From the NCBI GenBank assembly GCA_000004985.1, contig GG739077.1: DNA of 8,329 nucleotides; one strand, given 5' to 3'. The notes under the pieces are model-generated. The model was not told the origin of the DNA, did no database searches, and saw only the letters and a program-made list of their open reading frames with translations. The position numbers and the translations under genes were made by a program. Shown piece after piece: positions 1 to 8,329 of the stretch. Source of the DNA: Naegleria gruberi. Taxonomy: Eukaryota. Each line of letters opens with the position of its first letter. Within the stretch, counting starts at the first letter, position 1.

Positions 1-288
1 TGTAATGGATTTTTTAAAGAAACACCAATTATTATTGTTTTAAATAAGACTGATATATTTAAAAAGAAACTTGAAGTTCATGGTATTGAACAATGTTTTA
101 AAGATTACAATGGTTCACAAGATTATGATGAAAGTGTTCAATTTATTAGAAACAAATTTTTATCTTTAAACAAATTTGATGAACAAAGAATTTGGATACA
201 CGAATGTTGTGCCACTTCAACTGATGATGTTAGAAAAGTTTTTGAACAAATTAAACATCAAGTTGCTCAATGGAAGAGGAATCATTAA
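1..288 (+). CDS. Heterotrimeric G-protein alpha subunit, C-terminal part (5'-partial; stop TAA at 286-288)
   Basis: Frame 1 translates without stops to CNGFFKETPIIIVLNKTDIFKKKLEVHGIEQCFKDYNGSQDYDESVQFIRNKFLSLNKFDEQRIWIHECCATSTDDVRKVFEQIKHQVAQWKRNH*. It has the G4 box 'LNKTD' (NKxD), a G5-like 'CCATST' (canonical TCATDT) and a C-terminal a5-helix-like tail. Spacing and order match the G-alpha consensus (...ILFLNKKDLF...TCATDT...). Codon usage is Dictyostelium-type. Confidence 0.9.
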   Translation, partial: CNGFFKETPIIIVLNKTDIFKKKLEVHGIEQCFKDYNGSQDYDESVQFIRNKFLSLNKFDEQRIWIHECCATSTDDVRKVFEQIKHQVAQWKRNH

Positions 289-292
289 AAAA

Positions 293-298
293 AATAAA
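293..298 (+). terminator. AATAAA polyadenylation signal candidate for the upstream G-alpha gene
   Basis: AATAAA hexamer 5 nt downstream of the stop codon, in an A/T-rich 3' flank. Confidence 0.35.
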
Positions 299-647
299 TT
301 TATTATTATTAAGATCAATGTTGAACCTTTTTATTCATGGTTTTAGAATTAAATGATGTGATGAAGAGTGAGGTGTAATAATTGATTTTTGAACAAGACA
401 ATAGTCTGGAAGTGCAAATTTTGTTTTGCTGGAGAAATGGATTGGAAAATGTTTAATTTTCAATGATAAGAAGATTCATTTATCGATATGATTCTTATTG
501 TACTGTACAAATAGACTTGTTTTTTGATTCTATAATTCAATCACAAGTATTGCATTCAATGGTTCCATACAGAAACTCCATAATTGAAACAAAACAAGAA
601 ATAACACGACAAATACTTGGTCCATTATTTGGATTCACAACTCTCTT

Positions 648-684
648 TAAGAATTGTACTTTTACCAGAAGAATTGTACTTTTA
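648..684. repeat. Direct tandem duplication of about 19 bp (aagaattgtacttttac[c/t])
   Basis: Read directly: 'aagaattgtacttttaccag' is followed by 'aagaattgtacttttactttcag'. A third partial copy 'atattgtacc' lies at about 704-713. Confidence 0.6.
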
Positions 685-1243
685 CTTTCAGATTTTCCAG
701 ATATTGTACCGCTGAGATCTCAGCCAAGACCTAAAACAGAAACTCCACCAACTTGAAGAAAAGCCATAGAACCCAACAACTTACCACCAAGCACAGAAGA
801 AGATATTACTCATTTAATAATGCAGATGTGGTGTATCAGGTAACAAAAGAAGTATAAATGCTATTGGCATGACAAGTATTGGCTTTGCTTTGTTGGAGCC
901 AATTAATGTTGGCCCGTGCAACTAGTAGTAGTTCGTACGTTTTTAATTTGCTATTTATGTATTTATAATAAATATTTCACACATACATGCTGTGATAATA
1001 CTTTTCATTTAGTCTAAGAGGAGACTGCTTGGCGGATTTTTAACCTAGCAGCCTTGGTATTTATTGTTAACTAAAACACAATGAATCTCCAGAACACAGT
1101 TTTACACTACAATATTAATACAGATATTCTTTCCCACTCATCCACCATCAACTTCCAGATTCTGCACACCACAAGCAATATTTGTGATGCACACAGCTCC
1201 AAAATTGTTACGATTTAAACCAATTTGCGGATGTCAACAGTAA

Positions 1244-1293
1244 NNNNNNNNNNNNNNNNNNNNNNNNNNNNNNNNNNNNNNNNNNNNNNNNNN
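1244..1293. other. Assembly gap (50 N)
   Basis: Run of exactly 50 n characters, the conventional unknown-length gap placeholder. Confidence 0.95.
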
Positions 1294-1522
1294 TTGGTAT
1301 GTTTTGTAATTTTGAGCGGGAAACTAAATTTCAGTGTCTTGTGAAGTTGTTCTTCCATTAACTAGCCATCGCAAACAAACAAGACTATTTTCAAGCCTGT
1401 TGTGGATTTTCCAACTGTCATTAATCACTTTCCCATCAAAAAAAAATTTTGAACGACTCCCTGCTGTGAGAGTGAACTAAACTACAAAAACTCGCAGTAC
1501 CCACCTCCTTATCTACAACAAC

Positions 1523-1772
1523 GTGATTTGTTTTGATACAACAATAACAAATTTACTATTTTCCAATTATCTCTTGTCAAAAAATATTTTTTTAATAGTG
1601 TCATCTTCTGTATACAACAAGAATAATATTATCTATTATATACATTTCACTATTCTAATATACTATTCTAATATACTACTACCACTACAATTAGTACTAT
1701 TAAAAAGTAATATAACACAATAACAAATAACAAACAAATAACAACAAACAAATAACAATAATAATAATAATA
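1523..1772 (+). promoter_or_regulatory. AT-rich promoter/5' leader of the second G-alpha gene, with simple repeats
   Basis: More than 85% AT immediately upstream of the ATG at 1773. It contains a 13-bp perfect tandem repeat (1651..1676), a 13-nt 'caaacaaataaca' x2 repeat (1731..1757) and (TAA)5 at 1758..1772 abutting the start codon. The 66-aa ORF 1523..1723 here is low-complexity and judged spurious. Confidence 0.4.
1651..1676. repeat. Perfect 13-bp tandem repeat x2 (tattctaatatac)
   Basis: 1651-1663 and 1664-1676 are identical, read directly from the sequence. Confidence 0.7.
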
Positions 1773-2490
1773 ATGGGTTTATGTTTTGGTAAAACTGATG
1801 GTTCACAATCATCATCATCAAATAATCAATCTTCCAATCAAGATGGTAAAAATAAGAATAATCAACGTATCAATGATAATGATCCAAATAATGAAGGTGG
1901 TGATGAAATGAATGAAAATGCTGATCCAAATTCAGGAAATTATGATGTAAAATTATTATTATTAGGATCAGGTGAATCAGGTAAATCAACATTTTTCAAA
2001 CAAGTTCGTATTATATCACAAAGACCATTTTTAGAGAATGAACGTCGTCGTGTTAAAAATACAGTTCATTTCAATGTAGTTTCAAGTATGGCAGTAATGT
2101 GTCAAAAATTAAAAGAATTAAACTTGGAATTCTCAAGTGAAGAATTAAGTAAATGTGCAGAACGTGTATTACAATTAAGTAAGAATAGAGCATTCATGAC
2201 ATCAACAACAAGTGTTAAAGGAGGTGATCGTAATTTTTATACTGATGAAATTGCTAATGATATTTATCAATTATGGAAAGATTCAACTATTCAAAAAGTA
2301 TTTCAAAATAATAGAAATGATGTTCATGTTTTTGATGGTGCTGAATATTTCTTTGAACGTTTAGATATAATTAGAAAAAATGATTACATTCCATCTGAGG
2401 AAGATTTATTATATTGTCGTCAAAAAACTATTGGTATTGTTGAAGTTTCATTCGATCATGAATCTTTAAAATTTAGTTTATTTGATGTTG
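1773..2490 (+). CDS. Heterotrimeric G-protein alpha subunit, exon 1 (N-terminal 239 codons + 1 nt; continues beyond an intron into the assembly gap)
   Basis: ATG at 1773. The translation starts MGLCFGK (Gly2 for N-myristoylation, Cys4 for palmitoylation). There is a low-complexity S/N/Q/D-rich insert (residues ~10-57), a P-loop KLLLLGSGESGKST (nt 1965-1991), a helical-domain-length spacer and switch I 'RQKTIGIVE' (canonical RxKTTGIxE). The exon then reads ...LFDV+G, ending at 2490 in phase 1, immediately followed by GTATGT. The ORF-track tail 'MFFLNILIF*' is intron read-through. Confidence 0.9.
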
Positions 2491-2551
2491 GTATGTTTTT
2501 TTTAAATATTTTAATATTTTAATATTTTAATTTTAATATTTTAATTTTTAA
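2491..2551 (+). other. 5' part of intron 1 of the second G-alpha gene (donor GTATGT); runs into gap
   Basis: GTATGT at 2491-2496 directly after the codon phase-1 break inside the DVG(GQ) motif. Downstream is about 95% AT with an 8-bp 'atatttta' tandem repeat (2506..2551). The expected continuation 'GQ...' of the G3 box is absent in frame, so splicing is required. Confidence 0.75.
2506..2551. repeat. Period-8 AT tandem repeat (atatttta)n at the gap edge
   Basis: atatttta atatttta atatttta (a)tttta atatttta atttttaa, read directly. It abuts the N run and is probably the cause of the assembly break. Confidence 0.6.
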
Positions 2552-5500
2552 NNNNNNNNNNNNNNNNNNNNNNNNNNNNNNNNNNNNNNNNNNNNNNNNN
2601 NNNNNNNNNNNNNNNNNNNNNNNNNNNNNNNNNNNNNNNNNNNNNNNNNNNNNNNNNNNNNNNNNNNNNNNNNNNNNNNNNNNNNNNNNNNNNNNNNNNN
2701 NNNNNNNNNNNNNNNNNNNNNNNNNNNNNNNNNNNNNNNNNNNNNNNNNNNNNNNNNNNNNNNNNNNNNNNNNNNNNNNNNNNNNNNNNNNNNNNNNNNN
2801 NNNNNNNNNNNNNNNNNNNNNNNNNNNNNNNNNNNNNNNNNNNNNNNNNNNNNNNNNNNNNNNNNNNNNNNNNNNNNNNNNNNNNNNNNNNNNNNNNNNN
2901 NNNNNNNNNNNNNNNNNNNNNNNNNNNNNNNNNNNNNNNNNNNNNNNNNNNNNNNNNNNNNNNNNNNNNNNNNNNNNNNNNNNNNNNNNNNNNNNNNNNN
3001 NNNNNNNNNNNNNNNNNNNNNNNNNNNNNNNNNNNNNNNNNNNNNNNNNNNNNNNNNNNNNNNNNNNNNNNNNNNNNNNNNNNNNNNNNNNNNNNNNNNN
3101 NNNNNNNNNNNNNNNNNNNNNNNNNNNNNNNNNNNNNNNNNNNNNNNNNNNNNNNNNNNNNNNNNNNNNNNNNNNNNNNNNNNNNNNNNNNNNNNNNNNN
3201 NNNNNNNNNNNNNNNNNNNNNNNNNNNNNNNNNNNNNNNNNNNNNNNNNNNNNNNNNNNNNNNNNNNNNNNNNNNNNNNNNNNNNNNNNNNNNNNNNNNN
3301 NNNNNNNNNNNNNNNNNNNNNNNNNNNNNNNNNNNNNNNNNNNNNNNNNNNNNNNNNNNNNNNNNNNNNNNNNNNNNNNNNNNNNNNNNNNNNNNNNNNN
3401 NNNNNNNNNNNNNNNNNNNNNNNNNNNNNNNNNNNNNNNNNNNNNNNNNNNNNNNNNNNNNNNNNNNNNNNNNNNNNNNNNNNNNNNNNNNNNNNNNNNN
3501 NNNNNNNNNNNNNNNNNNNNNNNNNNNNNNNNNNNNNNNNNNNNNNNNNNNNNNNNNNNNNNNNNNNNNNNNNNNNNNNNNNNNNNNNNNNNNNNNNNNN
3601 NNNNNNNNNNNNNNNNNNNNNNNNNNNNNNNNNNNNNNNNNNNNNNNNNNNNNNNNNNNNNNNNNNNNNNNNNNNNNNNNNNNNNNNNNNNNNNNNNNNN
3701 NNNNNNNNNNNNNNNNNNNNNNNNNNNNNNNNNNNNNNNNNNNNNNNNNNNNNNNNNNNNNNNNNNNNNNNNNNNNNNNNNNNNNNNNNNNNNNNNNNNN
3801 NNNNNNNNNNNNNNNNNNNNNNNNNNNNNNNNNNNNNNNNNNNNNNNNNNNNNNNNNNNNNNNNNNNNNNNNNNNNNNNNNNNNNNNNNNNNNNNNNNNN
3901 NNNNNNNNNNNNNNNNNNNNNNNNNNNNNNNNNNNNNNNNNNNNNNNNNNNNNNNNNNNNNNNNNNNNNNNNNNNNNNNNNNNNNNNNNNNNNNNNNNNN
4001 NNNNNNNNNNNNNNNNNNNNNNNNNNNNNNNNNNNNNNNNNNNNNNNNNNNNNNNNNNNNNNNNNNNNNNNNNNNNNNNNNNNNNNNNNNNNNNNNNNNN
4101 NNNNNNNNNNNNNNNNNNNNNNNNNNNNNNNNNNNNNNNNNNNNNNNNNNNNNNNNNNNNNNNNNNNNNNNNNNNNNNNNNNNNNNNNNNNNNNNNNNNN
4201 NNNNNNNNNNNNNNNNNNNNNNNNNNNNNNNNNNNNNNNNNNNNNNNNNNNNNNNNNNNNNNNNNNNNNNNNNNNNNNNNNNNNNNNNNNNNNNNNNNNN
4301 NNNNNNNNNNNNNNNNNNNNNNNNNNNNNNNNNNNNNNNNNNNNNNNNNNNNNNNNNNNNNNNNNNNNNNNNNNNNNNNNNNNNNNNNNNNNNNNNNNNN
4401 NNNNNNNNNNNNNNNNNNNNNNNNNNNNNNNNNNNNNNNNNNNNNNNNNNNNNNNNNNNNNNNNNNNNNNNNNNNNNNNNNNNNNNNNNNNNNNNNNNNN
4501 NNNNNNNNNNNNNNNNNNNNNNNNNNNNNNNNNNNNNNNNNNNNNNNNNNNNNNNNNNNNNNNNNNNNNNNNNNNNNNNNNNNNNNNNNNNNNNNNNNNN
4601 NNNNNNNNNNNNNNNNNNNNNNNNNNNNNNNNNNNNNNNNNNNNNNNNNNNNNNNNNNNNNNNNNNNNNNNNNNNNNNNNNNNNNNNNNNNNNNNNNNNN
4701 NNNNNNNNNNNNNNNNNNNNNNNNNNNNNNNNNNNNNNNNNNNNNNNNNNNNNNNNNNNNNNNNNNNNNNNNNNNNNNNNNNNNNNNNNNNNNNNNNNNN
4801 NNNNNNNNNNNNNNNNNNNNNNNNNNNNNNNNNNNNNNNNNNNNNNNNNNNNNNNNNNNNNNNNNNNNNNNNNNNNNNNNNNNNNNNNNNNNNNNNNNNN
4901 NNNNNNNNNNNNNNNNNNNNNNNNNNNNNNNNNNNNNNNNNNNNNNNNNNNNNNNNNNNNNNNNNNNNNNNNNNNNNNNNNNNNNNNNNNNNNNNNNNNN
5001 NNNNNNNNNNNNNNNNNNNNNNNNNNNNNNNNNNNNNNNNNNNNNNNNNNNNNNNNNNNNNNNNNNNNNNNNNNNNNNNNNNNNNNNNNNNNNNNNNNNN
5101 NNNNNNNNNNNNNNNNNNNNNNNNNNNNNNNNNNNNNNNNNNNNNNNNNNNNNNNNNNNNNNNNNNNNNNNNNNNNNNNNNNNNNNNNNNNNNNNNNNNN
5201 NNNNNNNNNNNNNNNNNNNNNNNNNNNNNNNNNNNNNNNNNNNNNNNNNNNNNNNNNNNNNNNNNNNNNNNNNNNNNNNNNNNNNNNNNNNNNNNNNNNN
5301 NNNNNNNNNNNNNNNNNNNNNNNNNNNNNNNNNNNNNNNNNNNNNNNNNNNNNNNNNNNNNNNNNNNNNNNNNNNNNNNNNNNNNNNNNNNNNNNNNNNN
5401 NNNNNNNNNNNNNNNNNNNNNNNNNNNNNNNNNNNNNNNNNNNNNNNNNNNNNNNNNNNNNNNNNNNNNNNNNNNNNNNNNNNNNNNNNNNNNNNNNNNN

Positions 5501-7146
5501 NNNNNNNNNNNNNNNNNNNNNNNNNNNNNNNNNNNNNNNNNNNNNNNNNNNNNNNNNNNNNNNNNNNNNNNNNNNNNNNNNNNNNNNNNNNNNNNNNNNN
5601 NNNNNNNNNNNNNNNNNNNNNNNNNNNNNNNNNNNNNNNNNNNNNNNNNNNNNNNNNNNNNNNNNNNNNNNNNNNNNNNNNNNNNNNNNNNNNNNNNNNN
5701 NNNNNNNNNNNNNNNNNNNNNNNNNNNNNNNNNNNNNNNNNNNNNNNNNNNNNNNNNNNNNNNNNNNNNNNNNNNNNNNNNNNNNNNNNNNNNNNNNNNN
5801 NNNNNNNNNNNNNNNNNNNNNNNNNNNNNNNNNNNNNNNNNNNNNNNNNNNNNNNNNNNNNNNNNNNNNNNNNNNNNNNNNNNNNNNNNNNNNNNNNNNN
5901 NNNNNNNNNNNNNNNNNNNNNNNNNNNNNNNNNNNNNNNNNNNNNNNNNNNNNNNNNNNNNNNNNNNNNNNNNNNNNNNNNNNNNNNNNNNNNNNNNNNN
6001 NNNNNNNNNNNNNNNNNNNNNNNNNNNNNNNNNNNNNNNNNNNNNNNNNNNNNNNNNNNNNNNNNNNNNNNNNNNNNNNNNNNNNNNNNNNNNNNNNNNN
6101 NNNNNNNNNNNNNNNNNNNNNNNNNNNNNNNNNNNNNNNNNNNNNNNNNNNNNNNNNNNNNNNNNNNNNNNNNNNNNNNNNNNNNNNNNNNNNNNNNNNN
6201 NNNNNNNNNNNNNNNNNNNNNNNNNNNNNNNNNNNNNNNNNNNNNNNNNNNNNNNNNNNNNNNNNNNNNNNNNNNNNNNNNNNNNNNNNNNNNNNNNNNN
6301 NNNNNNNNNNNNNNNNNNNNNNNNNNNNNNNNNNNNNNNNNNNNNNNNNNNNNNNNNNNNNNNNNNNNNNNNNNNNNNNNNNNNNNNNNNNNNNNNNNNN
6401 NNNNNNNNNNNNNNNNNNNNNNNNNNNNNNNNNNNNNNNNNNNNNNNNNNNNNNNNNNNNNNNNNNNNNNNNNNNNNNNNNNNNNNNNNNNNNNNNNNNN
6501 NNNNNNNNNNNNNNNNNNNNNNNNNNNNNNNNNNNNNNNNNNNNNNNNNNNNNNNNNNNNNNNNNNNNNNNNNNNNNNNNNNNNNNNNNNNNNNNNNNNN
6601 NNNNNNNNNNNNNNNNNNNNNNNNNNNNNNNNNNNNNNNNNNNNNNNNNNNNNNNNNNNNNNNNNNNNNNNNNNNNNNNNNNNNNNNNNNNNNNNNNNNN
6701 NNNNNNNNNNNNNNNNNNNNNNNNNNNNNNNNNNNNNNNNNNNNNNNNNNNNNNNNNNNNNNNNNNNNNNNNNNNNNNNNNNNNNNNNNNNNNNNNNNNN
6801 NNNNNNNNNNNNNNNNNNNNNNNNNNNNNNNNNNNNNNNNNNNNNNNNNNNNNNNNNNNNNNNNNNNNNNNNNNNNNNNNNNNNNNNNNNNNNNNNNNNN
6901 NNNNNNNNNNNNNNNNNNNNNNNNNNNNNNNNNNNNNNNNNNNNNNNNNNNNNNNNNNNNNNNNNNNNNNNNNNNNNNNNNNNNNNNNNNNNNNNNNNNN
7001 NNNNNNNNNNNNNNNNNNNNNNNNNNNNNNNNNNNNNNNNNNNNNNNNNNNNNNNNNNNNNNNNNNNNNNNNNNNNNNNNNNNNNNNNNNNNNNNNNNNN
7101 NNNNNNNNNNNNNNNNNNNNNNNNNNNNNNNNNNNNNNNNNNNNNN
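2552..7146. other. Assembly gap (4595 N)
   Basis: Uninterrupted n run. The two giant minus-strand 'X' ORFs in the track (2541..7172, 2548..7239) are artefacts of translating N and use non-ATG (TTG) starts. Confidence 0.97.
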
Positions 7147-7245
7147 TCCAAATATTTGTACAAGTAAATCAAATGGATTTGTTATTACAGTTGTATTATT
7201 AAATATATTATGTCTTTTAAAATCTTCAAATGTCCACAATAGTCT
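7147..7245 (-). CDS. Putative downstream exon of the minus-strand gene (33 codons, RLLWTFEDFKRHNIFNNTTVITNPFDLLVQIFG...), open in frame to the gap edge
   Basis: If the GTAATT donor at 7320-7315 and the AG acceptor at 7247-7246 are used (75-nt, ~95% AT intron, phase 0), the frame continues without a stop for 33 codons to the N boundary. Composition is ~75% AT (coding-like), versus ~95% in the proposed intron. Confidence 0.5.
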
Positions 7246-7320
7246 CTTTTTAAAATTAATTAAATAGTAAAATTATAAAAATTATTAAAATAAATATTAA
7301 AAATTATAAAAATAAATTAC
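7246..7320 (-). other. Putative 75-nt intron of the minus-strand gene
   Basis: Minus-strand donor GTAATT after ...CAATTGTTAAGG (Q L L R), acceptor TTTTAAAAAG|AGA. Length and AT content are typical of Dictyostelium introns. Alternative: no splicing, with the stop at 7297-7299 (…RVIYFYNF*). Confidence 0.5.
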
Positions 7321-8329
7321 CCTTAACAATTGTGTCATTTCTTTTGATGTATCAACACAATAATGTGTATCACCATATTTTTCTTTAATAATTAAAATAC
7401 TTTCTATTAAGGTTAATATAATATTACTTTCAAACATTATTTTACAAATATTAACATGTTCAATTGCATTTTCTAAAATTAAATTCATAATTGAACATGC
7501 TCCAAATATTAAATTTAAAAAATTCTTTGAATAATTAATTTCTTCTTTTGAATTATTTAAATAATTTGAATTTTTAAAAAATTGTTTTAAAATAGTTTTA
7601 AATCTTCTCTTTCCTAAAACAATTACAATCATTGATAATCCTTGTATTGATCTATGTATTAACATTTCTGAAAATATTTCATTTTCATCTGGATATTGCA
7701 TTGCTATTTTAACCATTTCAACACTTTCTCTTACAACTCTAATATCTTCATCTGACAAATTCATAAATATTATATCTAATACTCTTGTTTCTCTTATTTG
7801 TTCAATTTTAATAGATTTGGATATTTCTTTTATCATTGAATATATTAATAATATTGATTGTGTTGATAATTCAATTGAATTTGCATTGTCATTTGTATTT
7901 GTATTATTTGTATTATTTGTATTTGTATTATTATTATTGTTCATATTGTTCATATTGTTCATATTATTTGTATTTGAAGGATCAAATGATTTTCTAAATT
8001 CTTCAGCTGATGCTAATTGATTTCTAGCAGTTTCAACAACATTAAGGAATGTAAATTTTGTGAATGGAAGTGATTGTTGTTTTGGAGTGGCTTCATTTTT
8101 AGGTGTTGTTAAACCTGGTTGAAATGAAATTGAAGAGGAGGGTGATTGAATTACATTTTTAGAAGTTGCAGCAGTTGAAGTAGTAGTGGTATTAGTAATG
8201 TGTGCAACATTTGGTGTTCTTGGAGACATTAAAAAATTACCAAATACTCTAGGTGAATTAAATATTGAACGTGGTGATGCAAAGGCATTCATTTCTTGTT
8301 GTTGAGTTTGTTGTTGCTGTTGTGAATTT
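7297..8329 (-). CDS. Uncharacterised N/T/M/Q-rich low-complexity protein, 5'-partial (frame open to the window edge), contiguous ORF; 3' end is either the stop at 7297-7299 or a splice at 7321
   Basis: The 331-aa ORF in the track starts at ATG 8292-8290, but the same frame stays open upstream to 8329 (…NSQQQQQTQQQE-MNAFASPRS…), so the true start lies outside the window. Dictyostelium-type codon usage. It carries an S/T/P-rich N-terminal part, a NNMNNMNNMNNNNNTNTNNTNNTNTNDN tract, then a hydrophobic/helical-looking C-terminal part (…EIFSEMLIHRSIQGLSMIVIVLGKRRFKTILKQFF…). No family recognised. Confidence 0.8.
   Translation of the reverse strand, partial: NSQQQQQTQQQEMNAFASPRSIFNSPRVFGNFLMSPRTPNVAHITNTTTTSTAATSKNVIQSPSSSISFQPGLTTPKNEATPKQQSLPFTKFTFLNVVETARNQLASAEEFRKSFDPSNTNNMNNMNNMNNNNNTNTNNTNNTNTNDNANSIELSTQSILLIYSMIKEISKSIKIEQIRETRVLDIIFMNLSDEDIRVVRESVEMVKIAMQYPDENEIFSEMLIHRSIQGLSMIVIVLGKRRFKTILKQFFKNSNYLNNSKEEINYSKNFLNLIFGACSIMNLILENAIEHVNICKIMFESNIILTLIESILIIKEKYGDTHYCVDTSKEMTQLLRVIYFYNF
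7890..7966 (-). repeat. Coding microsatellite: (tgtatt[a]tt)n followed by a 9-bp x3 repeat tgttcatat (7938..7964), encoding poly-N/T and NNM x3
   Basis: Read directly. The translation on minus is NNMNNMNNMNNNNNTNTNNTNNTNTNDN. Confidence 0.65.
8296..8322 (-). repeat. (TTG)n / CAA-CAG codon repeat encoding poly-Q at the upstream end of the minus-strand gene
   Basis: ttgttgttgagtttgttgttgctgttg on plus = QQQQQTQQQ on minus, in frame with the ORF and running off the window. Confidence 0.6.

What the first reader, a model, noticed from the sequence alone, without database searches (positions are those of the whole stretch)
300..1520. Anomalous 1.2-kb GC-enriched, ORF-poor island in an otherwise ~90% AT intergenic context
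Spacers, introns and UTRs elsewhere in the window are 85-95% AT. This block is about 35-40% GC yet has no long ORF, and its codon usage does not match that of the neighbouring genes. It contains a 19-bp tandem duplication (648..684) and an internal 50-N assembly gap, which hints at repetitiveness. Both strands carry 30-60-codon open stretches broken by stops. In Dictyostelium-like genomes such composition is typical of transposon fragments such as DIRS, TRE or DDT-type relics, of decayed pseudogenes, or of ncRNA genes. This is the piece of the window least explained by the annotated features.
Basis: seen in the sequence. Interest (0 to 1): 0.55.

Follow-up and report, generated by a model that had tools for sequence, protein, structure and literature searches.

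The report
Ordinary Naegleria spacer, misread as Dictyostelium
The "GC-rich island" is ordinary non-coding DNA flanking a G-protein alpha gene of the amoeba Naegleria gruberi, whose genome averages 33-35% GC; it is two flanks joined across an assembly gap, not a transposon or RNA gene, though about 0.3 kb of it shows a weak protein-coding signature.

Summary
The window is a complete 8,329-bp scaffold of Naegleria gruberi, not a Dictyostelium-like genome. Region 300-1520 is 33.4% GC, not 35-40%. That is higher than the local coding sequence (25%) and the local introns and proximal promoter (14%). It equals the published N. gruberi genome mean (33-35%) and falls inside the spacer range of N. lovaniensis (29-40%).

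The island is not one object. Bases 288-1243 follow the stop codon of a G-alpha gene. Bases 1294-1772 precede the start codon of the same gene. Only a 50-N scaffold gap joins them. Both flanking genes have near-identical copies on one 275-kb scaffold, so the window is a redundant haplotig or duplicate. It holds either mis-ordered contigs or a tandem G-alpha duplication.

I found no tRNA, Rfam family, Pfam domain, protein homologue, terminal repeat or similarity to related loci. The 17-nt tandem repeat with 20-nt period is real.

One residue of interest remains. Bases 440-800, containing the 97-codon ORF 463-753, show three-base periodicity (p = 4e-4). This suggests an orphan small gene or a decayed exon with no detectable relatives.

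The parts
1..288 (+). 3' end of a G-protein alpha gene: the last 95 codons (1-285) plus stop codon TAA (286-288).
   Evidence: Pfam G-alpha PF00503, profile positions 245-332 of 333, E = 5e-25. The translation is identical to the C-terminus of N. gruberi XP_002671225.1 (P0002). It is 76% nt identical to the N. lovaniensis orthologue at L003 11116-11403.
289..1243 (.). Island-left: the 3' flank of the G-alpha gene, on the same contig as the stop codon. GC is 32.5% for 300-1243.
   Evidence: No similarity to proteins, Rfam families, plasmids or the related loci. N. lovaniensis has a 1.4-kb, 33.5% GC, ORF-poor stretch at the same position.
463..756 (+). Longest ORF (97 codons plus stop), lying inside a 440-800 stretch with three-base periodicity. 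It is a candidate orphan small gene or decayed exon. The coding strand is ambiguous: minus-strand frame 540-809 shares the same third positions and has one TGA.
   Evidence: GC by codon position is 0.38/0.38/0.165, against 0.30-0.42/0.25-0.32/0.09-0.12 in the real genes here. Chi-square p = 6e-4 for the ORF and 4e-4 for 440-800. None of 401 random long ORFs shows such a GC3 dip. Codon log-likelihood is -0.01 per codon, against -0.42 +/- 0.17 for random ORFs and +0.29 to +0.47 for real genes. No homologue in 1.8e9 representative proteins. AlphaFold pLDDT is 43 for the plus ORF and 56 for the minus peptide.
649..685 (.). Exact 17-nt direct repeat (649-665 and 669-685) separated by CAG, giving a 20-nt period. 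Most simply a slippage micro-duplication.
   Evidence: Tandem Repeats Finder did not report it at minimum score 30. On the minus strand one copy reads SGKSTILKE, which resembles a P-loop, but this is not significant.
1244..1293 (.). 50-N scaffold gap that joins two separate contigs in the middle of the 'island'.
1294..1520 (.). Island-right: the distal 5' flank of the G-alpha gene, on the same contig as exon 1. GC is 37.0%.
   Evidence: The corresponding eIF6-to-G-alpha spacers are 36.5% GC in N. lovaniensis, 39.3% in L001 and 42.8% in L004.
1521..1772 (+). AT-rich, A/C-repeat-rich proximal upstream region of G-alpha (19% GC), probably promoter and 5' UTR.
   Evidence: 13-nt repeat at 1649-1674; AACAAATAACAA repeats at 1722-1758. 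The upstream regions of L003 and L001 are likewise A/C-rich just before the ATG.
1773..2490 (+). Exon 1 of the same G-alpha gene (MGLCFGK...SLFDVG), followed by a GTATGT intron that runs into the 4,595-N gap.
   Evidence: 100% identical to XP_002668415.1 and 94% to XP_002671225.1. 77% nt identical to N. lovaniensis L003 10135-10742.
7147..8329 (-). Part of a DUF5578 gene, on the third contig of the scaffold. It has an AT-rich intron at about 7251-7330.
   Evidence: 97% identical to the N. gruberi predicted protein P0121 (PF17741), which lies on the same 275,174-bp scaffold as P0002. 45% aa identity to the N. lovaniensis DUF5578 gene downstream of G-alpha.

Best explanation
The 'island' is not a discrete element. 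It is ordinary non-coding flank DNA of a Naegleria gruberi G-protein alpha gene, at the genome's average base composition.

The left part (289-1243) is what follows the gene's stop codon. The right part (1294-1772) is what precedes its start codon. A 50-N scaffolding gap brought the two together. The host is an 8.3-kb scaffold that is a slightly divergent, redundant copy of a locus on a 275-kb scaffold. It could be an alternative haplotype or a recent duplicate.

The odd order, with the gene's 3' end before its 5' end, has two possible causes. Either contig 1 was placed on the wrong side of contig 2 and really belongs inside the 4.6-kb gap, or G-alpha is tandemly duplicated and this is the inter-copy spacer. 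I cannot separate these and rate them about equal.

Functionally the DNA most likely carries only the 3'-end signals of the upstream gene copy and the promoter of the downstream one. That step is inferred, not shown.

It looked anomalous for two reasons. In addition, N. gruberi genes here have an extremely AT-rich third codon position (GC3 about 10%) and AT-rich introns, which pull the neighbouring features below the genome mean.
For: - Organism: the ORF at 1773 is 100% identical to N. gruberi XP_002668415.1, whose contig length is 8,329 bp.
- Same gene on both sides: window 1-285 equals the C-terminal 95 aa of P0002, and 1773+ equals its N-terminal part.
- Three contigs: N runs at 1244-1293 and 2552-7146.
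- Redundancy: the G-alpha copy (P0002) and the DUF5578 copy (P0121, 97% identical) both sit on one 275,174-bp scaffold. The differences are a few substitutions plus low-complexity indels.
- Synteny: eIF6 then G-alpha, with a 500-600-bp spacer, is conserved in three Naegleria-like contigs. G-alpha followed later by DUF5578 on the minus strand holds in N. lovaniensis. Contigs 2 and 3 are therefore collinear and contig 1 is the odd one out.
- Composition: genome GC is 35% (PMC6125883 Table 1), and Naegleria genomes range 33-37% (PMC12482156). N. lovaniensis spacers are 29-40% GC and its genes 30-40%. The spacers flanking the orthologous G-alpha are 36.5% and 33.5% GC.
- Nothing else found: no tRNA, no Rfam hit, no Pfam hit in six frames, no protein hit at E <= 1 for the six-frame query, no plasmid match, no terminal inverted repeats, no similarity to related loci beyond chance.
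Against: - Within the window the block really is richer in GC than every other non-coding piece (p = 4e-14). No other N. gruberi spacer was available for a like-for-like comparison. 'Normal for N. gruberi' therefore rests on the published genome mean and on sister species.
- Bases 440-800 show codon-like periodicity, which plain spacer should not have.
- Mate-pair orientation normally prevents contigs from being swapped, so the mis-ordering branch needs a scaffolding error.
- Genome-wide copy number and expression could not be examined, because no N. gruberi DNA collection is reachable with these tools.
Confidence: 0.7

Rival explanations
1. Part of the island, about 440-800, is or recently was protein-coding. 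It could be an unannotated, lineage-restricted small gene (the 97-aa ORF 463-753) or a decayed exon on the minus strand (frame 540-809 with one TGA). This is compatible with the rest being plain spacer.
For: - Third-position GC is 0.165 against 0.38 at positions 1 and 2.
- Periodicity chi-square p = 4e-4 to 6e-4.
- None of 401 composition-matched random long ORFs shows this dip, and only 0.5% reach its codon-usage score.
- The frame through 463-1243 has 6 stops against 14-18 in the other frames.
- The low-GC phase holds from about 440 to 800.
Against: - The codon-usage score (-0.01 per codon) is well below cross-validated real genes (+0.29 to +0.47).
- ORF length alone is unremarkable (p = 0.08).
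- No homologue in 5.8e9 clusters, including the annotated N. gruberi, N. lovaniensis and N. fowleri proteomes, or in 1.8e9 representatives.
- No Pfam or PDB match.
- AlphaFold models have low confidence.
- An exact 20-nt duplication, not a multiple of three, sits inside the frame.
- The coding strand cannot be decided.
Confidence: 0.3
2. The block is a fragment of a transposable element, possibly a Naegleria-specific non-autonomous one, inserted next to the G-alpha gene.
For: About 5% of the N. gruberi genome is repeats (PMC6125883 Table 1). An assembly gap and a small unplaced scaffold are typical repeat symptoms. The block has no similarity to the orthologous flanks in sister species.
Against: - No reverse transcriptase, integrase, transposase or any other domain in six frames.
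- No protein hit at all.
- No terminal inverted or long direct repeats.
- No tRNA nearby.
- Lack of similarity to sister-species spacers is expected at this divergence, because even coding DNA is only about 76% identical.
- The scaffold's redundancy is explained by gene-bearing copies on the 275-kb scaffold.
Confidence: 0.07
3. The block contains a non-coding RNA gene, either structured or a lncRNA.
For: Two 120-nt windows fold somewhat better than shuffles: 848-967 plus strand at z = -2.8, and 968-1087 minus strand at z = -3.2, with 2 of 200 shuffles as good in each case. An intron-like AT-rich segment, GTACGT...TTTAG, lies at 935-1012.
Against: - No Rfam family even at E <= 10 apart from chance-level snoRNA hits far below their gathering scores.
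- The z-scores are the extremes of 62 windows tested and do not survive that multiplicity.
- No homologous sequences exist to test covariation.
Confidence: 0.05
4. The minus strand around the tandem repeat is an inverted relic of a G-alpha or other P-loop GTPase 5' exon, left by an old inverted duplication.
For: - The minus strand reads SGKSTILKE in one frame and VSVLGLG*DLSGTISGKSESKSTIL in the frame that carries the low-GC third positions.
- 23 of 24 nt match the N. lovaniensis G-alpha P-loop codons, p = 0.005 under strict scoring with 1000 dinucleotide shuffles.
Against: - After correcting for about 12 target and strand comparisons, p is about 0.06. With permissive gapped scoring p = 0.73.
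- A G-alpha profile run with all filters off finds only the 9-residue match, at E of about 0.3-0.5.
- Nothing resembling G-alpha follows the motif.
- The adjacent N. gruberi G-alpha uses different codons there, with 18 of 27 nt matching on reading.
Confidence: 0.07

Closest known systems
Redundant small scaffolds (uncollapsed haplotigs or collapsed-duplicate junctions) in Sanger-era JGI whole-genome shotgun assemblies
   Same: The scaffold is tiny (8.3 kb) and built of three contigs linked only by N gaps. Its two identifiable genes have 94-97% identical protein models on one large scaffold. The differences are a few substitutions and microsatellite indels.
   Different: Contig order is not collinear with the conserved locus, because the 3' end of the gene precedes its 5' end. 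A simple haplotig would be collinear. Either an ordering error or a real tandem duplication must be added.
Ordinary intergenic spacers of Naegleria, such as those flanking the orthologous G-alpha in N. lovaniensis
   Same: GC of about 33-37%, with no long ORF and no annotated gene. N. lovaniensis has a 1.4-kb, 33.5% GC, ORF-poor stretch directly after the G-alpha stop and a 36.5% GC spacer before its start.
   Different: There is no alignable sequence similarity. In N. gruberi the contrast with neighbouring genes is larger, because local GC3 is about 10% against 22-30% in N. lovaniensis.
Lineage-restricted ('orphan') small ORFs and decaying pseudogene exons
   Same: A 97-codon ORF with a third-position composition bias and better-than-random codon usage, but no detectable homologue.
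   Different: Codon usage is clearly weaker than in bona fide genes. The strand is ambiguous, a 20-nt duplication lies inside the frame, and there is no expression evidence.
   Same: The only shared trait is being richer in GC than the surrounding AT-rich sequence.
   Different: The host is the wrong organism: Heterolobosea, not Amoebozoa. There are no transposon-encoded protein remnants, no terminal repeats and no tRNA gene nearby.

Membership tests
Dictyostelid transposons (DIRS-1, TRE, DDT, Skipper) | The host genome is a dictyostelid. | tested here: not met
   The window is a Naegleria gruberi scaffold. XP_002668415.1 matches at 100% and its contig length is 8,329 bp.
Dictyostelid transposons (DIRS-1, TRE, DDT, Skipper) | Remnants of element-encoded proteins: reverse transcriptase, RNase H, tyrosine recombinase, integrase or transposase. 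| tested here: not met
   No Pfam family at E <= 10 in any of six frames. No protein at E <= 1 for the six-frame query against 5.8e9 clusters.
Dictyostelid transposons (DIRS-1, TRE, DDT, Skipper) | Terminal repeats (LTR, ITR or TIR) or, for TRE elements, an adjacent tRNA gene. | tested here: not met
   Only short, AT-rich, chance-level inverted and direct repeats. No tRNA in the window.
Any transposable element or repeat family | Multiple dispersed copies in the host genome. | not testable with these tools
   No N. gruberi genomic DNA collection is available. Exact-protein look-ups for window ORFs, P0001 and P0002 returned nothing.
Structured ncRNA gene | Match to a curated RNA family. | tested here: not met
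   cmscan against Rfam 15 at E <= 10 gave only chance-level hits. The one inside the block is TtnuCD7, at 27 bits against a gathering score of 90.
Structured ncRNA gene | Thermodynamically unusual structure, conserved with covariation. | tested here: inconclusive
   The best windows inside the block reach z = -2.8 and -3.2 among 62 tested. There are no homologues on which to count covariation.
Pseudogene or small protein-coding gene | Three-base periodicity and codon usage like the host's genes. | tested here: inconclusive
   The periodicity is significant for 440-800 (p = 4e-4) and the GC3 dip is seen in 0 of 401 random ORFs. The codon log-likelihood is only intermediate between random ORFs and real genes.
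Pseudogene or small protein-coding gene | Recognisable homology to a parent gene or to orthologues. | tested here: not met
   No hits in any search. The neighbouring genes of the related loci gave nothing in the block below E about 1.8, and translated island frames gave nothing against those loci at E <= 0.1.
Ordinary Naegleria intergenic DNA | Base composition within the genome and spacer norm of the genus. | tested here: met
   The island is 33.4% GC. The N. gruberi genome is 35% (PMC6125883) and the genus ranges 33-37% (PMC12482156). N. lovaniensis spacers are 29-40%.
Ordinary Naegleria intergenic DNA | Lies between a gene's stop codon and the next gene's start, contiguous with both. | tested here: met
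   289-1243 is contiguous with the G-alpha stop at 286-288. 1294-1772 is contiguous with the G-alpha ATG at 1773.
Redundant haplotig or duplicate scaffold | Its genes have near-identical copies together elsewhere in the same assembly. | tested here: met
   P0002 (G-alpha) and P0121 (DUF5578, 97% identical) both lie on a 275,174-bp scaffold.
Tandem gene duplication | Two head-to-tail copies shown in contiguous sequence. | tested here: inconclusive
   The 3' end and the 5' end of G-alpha lie in the same orientation 1.5 kb apart, but they are joined only across a 50-N gap. Only one full-length near-identical model exists elsewhere.

The most novel reading that the evidence does not exclude
Bases 440-800 encode a previously unannotated, N. 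gruberi-restricted small protein: either the 97-aa ORF 463-753 or a minus-strand exon. Alternatively they preserve the last trace of an inverted P-loop GTPase (G-alpha-like) exon. Either way, the locus would record a recent local duplication or gene birth-and-decay event next to a G-alpha gene that may itself be tandemly duplicated.
Probability: 0.2. Interest if true: 0.3.

Novelty: not a real feature. Interest (0 to 1): 0.12.

Why it matters
It matters mainly as a correction. A composition 'anomaly' can only be judged against the right genome. Once the sequence is placed in Naegleria gruberi, the island is average, and it is also a composite created by scaffolding.

For users of the N. gruberi v1 assembly, this small scaffold is a redundant and probably mis-ordered copy of a locus on a 275-kb scaffold. 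It carries a chimeric gene model, NAEGRDRAFT_76672.

If the weak coding signal at 463-753 is real, it would add one orphan small ORF to the annotation. That would be of minor interest.

Tried and rejected
- tRNA scan of the whole window: none.
- Rfam at E <= 10: nothing credible.
- Pfam on all six frames at E <= 10: nothing.
- Six-frame concatenated query against 5.8e9 protein clusters: no hit at E <= 1.
- Exhaustive HMMER search of the 97-aa ORF against 1.8e9 representatives: 0 hits.
- PDB sequence search with the minus-strand peptide: nothing.
- AlphaFold on both candidate peptides: pLDDT 43 and 56, too low for a fold search.
- Exact-product contig look-ups for window ORFs, P0001 and P0002: not on record, so the N. 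gruberi main scaffold could not be read.
- BLASTN, Smith-Waterman with shuffles and translated searches of the island against orthologous flanks in N. lovaniensis, two other Naegleria-like contigs and Willaertia: only low-complexity or chance hits.
- A MAFFT block in the upstream spacer (TGTCAT...AAAAAAAT) looked conserved, but the upstream spacers as a whole gave no significant local alignment.
- Test of whether the island is a decayed copy of genes neighbouring G-alpha in sister species (eIF6, the 341-aa gene, the L001 minus-strand gene, Metallophos): no.
- Plasmid collection search, as a check for contamination: no match.
- Terminal inverted repeat search: none.
- G-alpha profile with all filters off against the island frames: only a 9-residue P-loop match at E about 0.3-0.5. 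The DNA-level test was marginal and was rejected after multiplicity correction.
- Removing one copy of the 20-nt repeat (done by eye): this does not lengthen any frame.
- Metagenome, bacterial-genome and viral collection scans were not run. The protein searches showed no close Naegleria gruberi relatives in JGI metagenomes, and those collections hold no N. gruberi genome.
- The original genome paper (PMID 20211133) is not held in the library.
Full report
**What the sequence is**

The window consists of three sequence blocks: 1-1243, 1294-2551 and 7147-8329. They are separated by N runs of 50 and 4,595 bases.

The ORF starting at 1773 was searched against the large protein collection. It is 100% identical to 'predicted protein [Naegleria gruberi]' (XP_002668415.1, NAEGRDRAFT_76672). 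The contig recorded for that protein is exactly 8,329 bp long. The window is therefore a whole small scaffold of the heterolobosean amoeba Naegleria gruberi. Everything that follows from it, including the choice of repeat families and the expectation of about 90% AT spacers, has to be set aside.

**Checking the observation**

- Excluding Ns, 300-1520 is 33.4% GC: 32.5% left of the gap and 37.0% right of it. Some 100-nt windows reach 37-45%. This is lower than the 35-40% stated.
- The block is still significantly richer in GC than the local coding sequence (25.5%, p = 2e-6). It is also richer than the other non-coding pieces of the window (14%, p = 4e-14).
- Those other pieces add up to only about 390 nt. 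They are two intron fragments and the 250 nt just upstream of the ATG. There is no second intergenic region in the window.
- The tandem repeat is real: an exact 17-mer at 649-665 and 669-685, with a 20-nt period.
- The 50-N gap is real.
- The longest ORF is 97 codons, at 463-753.

**Anatomy of the surroundings**

Bases 1-285 encode the last 95 residues of a G-protein alpha subunit (Pfam G-alpha, E = 5e-25), and the stop codon is at 286-288. These residues are identical to the C-terminus of a second N. gruberi protein, XP_002671225.1 (P0002, 355 aa, on a 275,174-bp scaffold). The N-terminal part of P0002 matches the exon starting at 1773, apart from microsatellite-type indels.

The 'island' therefore lies between the 3' end and the 5' end of one and the same gene, and it is split by the 50-N gap. 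Bases 289-1243 are the 3' flank, contiguous with the stop codon. Bases 1294-1772 are the 5' flank, contiguous with the start codon.

The third contig carries part of a DUF5578 gene on the minus strand. It is 97% identical to another N. gruberi protein (P0121) on that same 275-kb scaffold. The whole window is thus a redundant, slightly divergent copy of a locus assembled elsewhere. It is either an uncollapsed haplotype or a recent duplicate.

**Synteny**

I fetched the orthologous loci from N. lovaniensis (L003), two unnamed Naegleria-like assemblies (L001/L002 and L004) and Willaertia magna (L005).

- In all three Naegleria-like contigs, eIF6 sits 500-600 bp upstream of G-alpha.
- In N. lovaniensis, a DUF5578 gene lies downstream on the minus strand.

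Contigs 2 and 3 of the window are collinear with that arrangement. Contig 1, which holds the G-alpha 3' end and island-left, is not. Where eIF6 is expected there is instead the tail of G-alpha.

Two explanations remain.
- (a) Contig 1 really belongs inside the 4.6-kb gap after contig 2, where it would fit, and was mis-ordered.
- (b) G-alpha is tandemly duplicated in this haplotype, and the island is the inter-copy spacer.

I could not reach the 275-kb scaffold or any N. gruberi reads, so this stays open.

**Composition in context**

The published N. gruberi genome GC is 35% (PMC6125883, Table 1), and the genus range is 33-37% (PMC12482156). In N. lovaniensis the nine spacers of the fetched 21 kb are 29-40% GC, the same as its genes at 30-40%. 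The spacers immediately before and after the orthologous G-alpha are 36.5% and 33.5% GC. The second of these is a 1.4-kb ORF-poor stretch, a positional counterpart of island-left. L001 and L004 have 39% and 43% GC in the upstream spacer.

The local contrast arises because the N. gruberi genes here have GC3 of only 9-12% and very AT-rich introns. In N. lovaniensis GC3 is 22-30%. In both species spacers are richer in GC than third codon positions.

**Searching for content**

- No tRNA.
- No Rfam family. The best hit inside the block is 27 bits against a gathering score of 90.
- No Pfam domain in any of six frames at E <= 10.
- No protein at E <= 1 when all six frames of 288-1560 were searched against 5.8 billion clusters. 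That collection contains the annotated N. gruberi, N. lovaniensis and N. fowleri proteomes and transposon proteins.
- No plasmid match.
- No terminal inverted repeats.
- No significant DNA or translated similarity to any of the related loci.
- RNA folding z-scores peak inside the block at -2.8 and -3.2 among 62 windows, which is not convincing.

There is no positive evidence for a transposon or an ncRNA.

**One signal that is not plain spacer**

The 97-codon ORF 463-753 has GC of 0.38/0.38/0.165 at codon positions 1, 2 and 3. The real genes here show the same shape, at about 0.30-0.42/0.25-0.32/0.09-0.12.

- The low-GC phase persists from about 440 to 800.
- Chi-square gives p = 4e-4 for 440-800 and 6e-4 for the ORF. 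No other part of the spacer shows periodicity.
- Among 401 long ORFs drawn from composition-matched random sequence, none has such a dip. Only 0.5% reach its codon-usage score.
- That score (-0.01 per codon) is still far below cross-validated real genes (+0.29 to +0.47).
- The coding strand is ambiguous. The minus-strand frame 540-809 shares the same third positions, has one TGA, and fits position-specific base frequencies slightly better.
- The ORF has no homologue in an exhaustive HMMER search of 1.8 billion representatives.
- AlphaFold gives low confidence for both candidate peptides.

I read this as a possible orphan small gene or a decaying exon, with a probability of about 0.3. It concerns only about 0.3 kb of the 1.2-kb block.

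**A curiosity I could not establish**

On the minus strand the tandem repeat reads SGKSTILKE, the G-alpha P-loop signature. It matches the N. lovaniensis G-alpha P-loop codons at 23 of 24 nt.

Under strict scoring this has p = 0.005 with 1000 dinucleotide shuffles. About 12 comparisons were made, however, and permissive gapped scoring gives p = 0.73. A G-alpha profile finds nothing beyond the nine residues, at E of about 0.3-0.5. I treat it as chance until shown otherwise.

**Verdict**

The interpretation as an anomalous island in a Dictyostelium-type genome, probably a transposon relic, is not upheld.

The best explanation (confidence 0.7) is ordinary flanking and intergenic DNA of a Naegleria G-alpha gene, at genome-average composition. 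It was made to look like one block by a scaffold join, on a redundant and probably mis-ordered or tandem-duplicate scaffold. As a discrete feature it is not real, and interest is low.

The only open thread is the weak coding signature at 440-800. The trivial but decisive checks are a whole-genome BLASTN, long reads or PCR across the junction, and RNA-seq. None of these could be run here.

Noticed in passing
window 1-288 and 1773-2490: The scaffold starts with the 3' end of a G-alpha gene and, 1.5 kb later, carries the 5' exon of the same gene in the same orientation. This indicates either a permuted or mis-ordered scaffold or a tandem G-alpha duplication.
   Followed up: partly
window 1773-2490 joined to about 8030-8122 (+): The deposited gene model NAEGRDRAFT_76672 (P0001, 269 aa) looks chimeric. 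After exon 1 it jumps over the 4.6-kb N gap. It ends in 30 residues (VSTTLRNV...VVKPG) read from the plus strand, antisense to the DUF5578 gene.
   Followed up: partly
window about 1843-1856 and 2008-2034, compared with P0002: The sister model XP_002671225.1 starts at an internal Met (MVKSKNN...). This implies a 1-nt indel relative to the window, which removes the MGLCFGK N-terminus (by my own knowledge, the usual N-terminal lipidation motif of G-alpha proteins). It also skips RIISQRPFLE through what looks like a spurious 27-nt intron. Real differences between the two copies are AAT and GGT repeat indels near 1880-1900.
   Followed up: partly
window 7147-8329 (-): This is a partial DUF5578 gene with an AT-rich intron at about 7251-7330. 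It differs from the copy on the 275-kb scaffold (P0121) by about 5 substitutions and an Asn-rich repeat-length change, consistent with allelic or recent-duplicate divergence. P0121 itself ends by reading into the intron (...LLRVIY).
   Followed up: partly
window 646-689 (-): The reverse complement of the tandem repeat encodes SGKSTILKE, a P-loop signature. It matches 23 of 24 nt of the N. lovaniensis G-alpha P-loop codons. The match is not significant after correction.
   Followed up: yes
window 935-1012 (+): An AT-rich 78-nt segment begins with GTACGT and ends with TTTAG, so it looks like an intron. Splicing it out gives only a 19-codon reading frame, so no gene model follows from it.
   Followed up: partly
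window 2501-2551: Contig 2 ends inside the G-alpha intron in a TTTTAATA / 14-nt AT microsatellite. This probably explains why the assembly broke here.
   Followed up: no
window 1649-1674 and 1712-1774: The proximal upstream region of G-alpha holds an exact 13-nt tandem repeat (ACTATTCTAATAT, two copies) and AACAAATAACAA / AAT repeats running up to the ATG. A/C-rich tracts also precede the ATG in N. lovaniensis and L001.
   Followed up: no
L003 11419-12814; L005 7183-13059: N. lovaniensis has a 1.4-kb stretch with no called gene (33.5% GC, ORF-poor) directly after the G-alpha stop. Willaertia magna has 5.9 kb at only 13% GC with no called gene after its G-alpha. In L001, by contrast, a minus-strand gene starts 139 bp after the stop.
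   Followed up: partly
L001 5476-6776 and L002 1071-2371: In the Logan and ENA contigs the G-alpha gene is called as two ORFs that overlap by 4 bp (277 and 156 aa). The caller reads into the intron and does not model the splice. This affects how such proteins appear in the protein collection (for example P0003).
   Followed up: no
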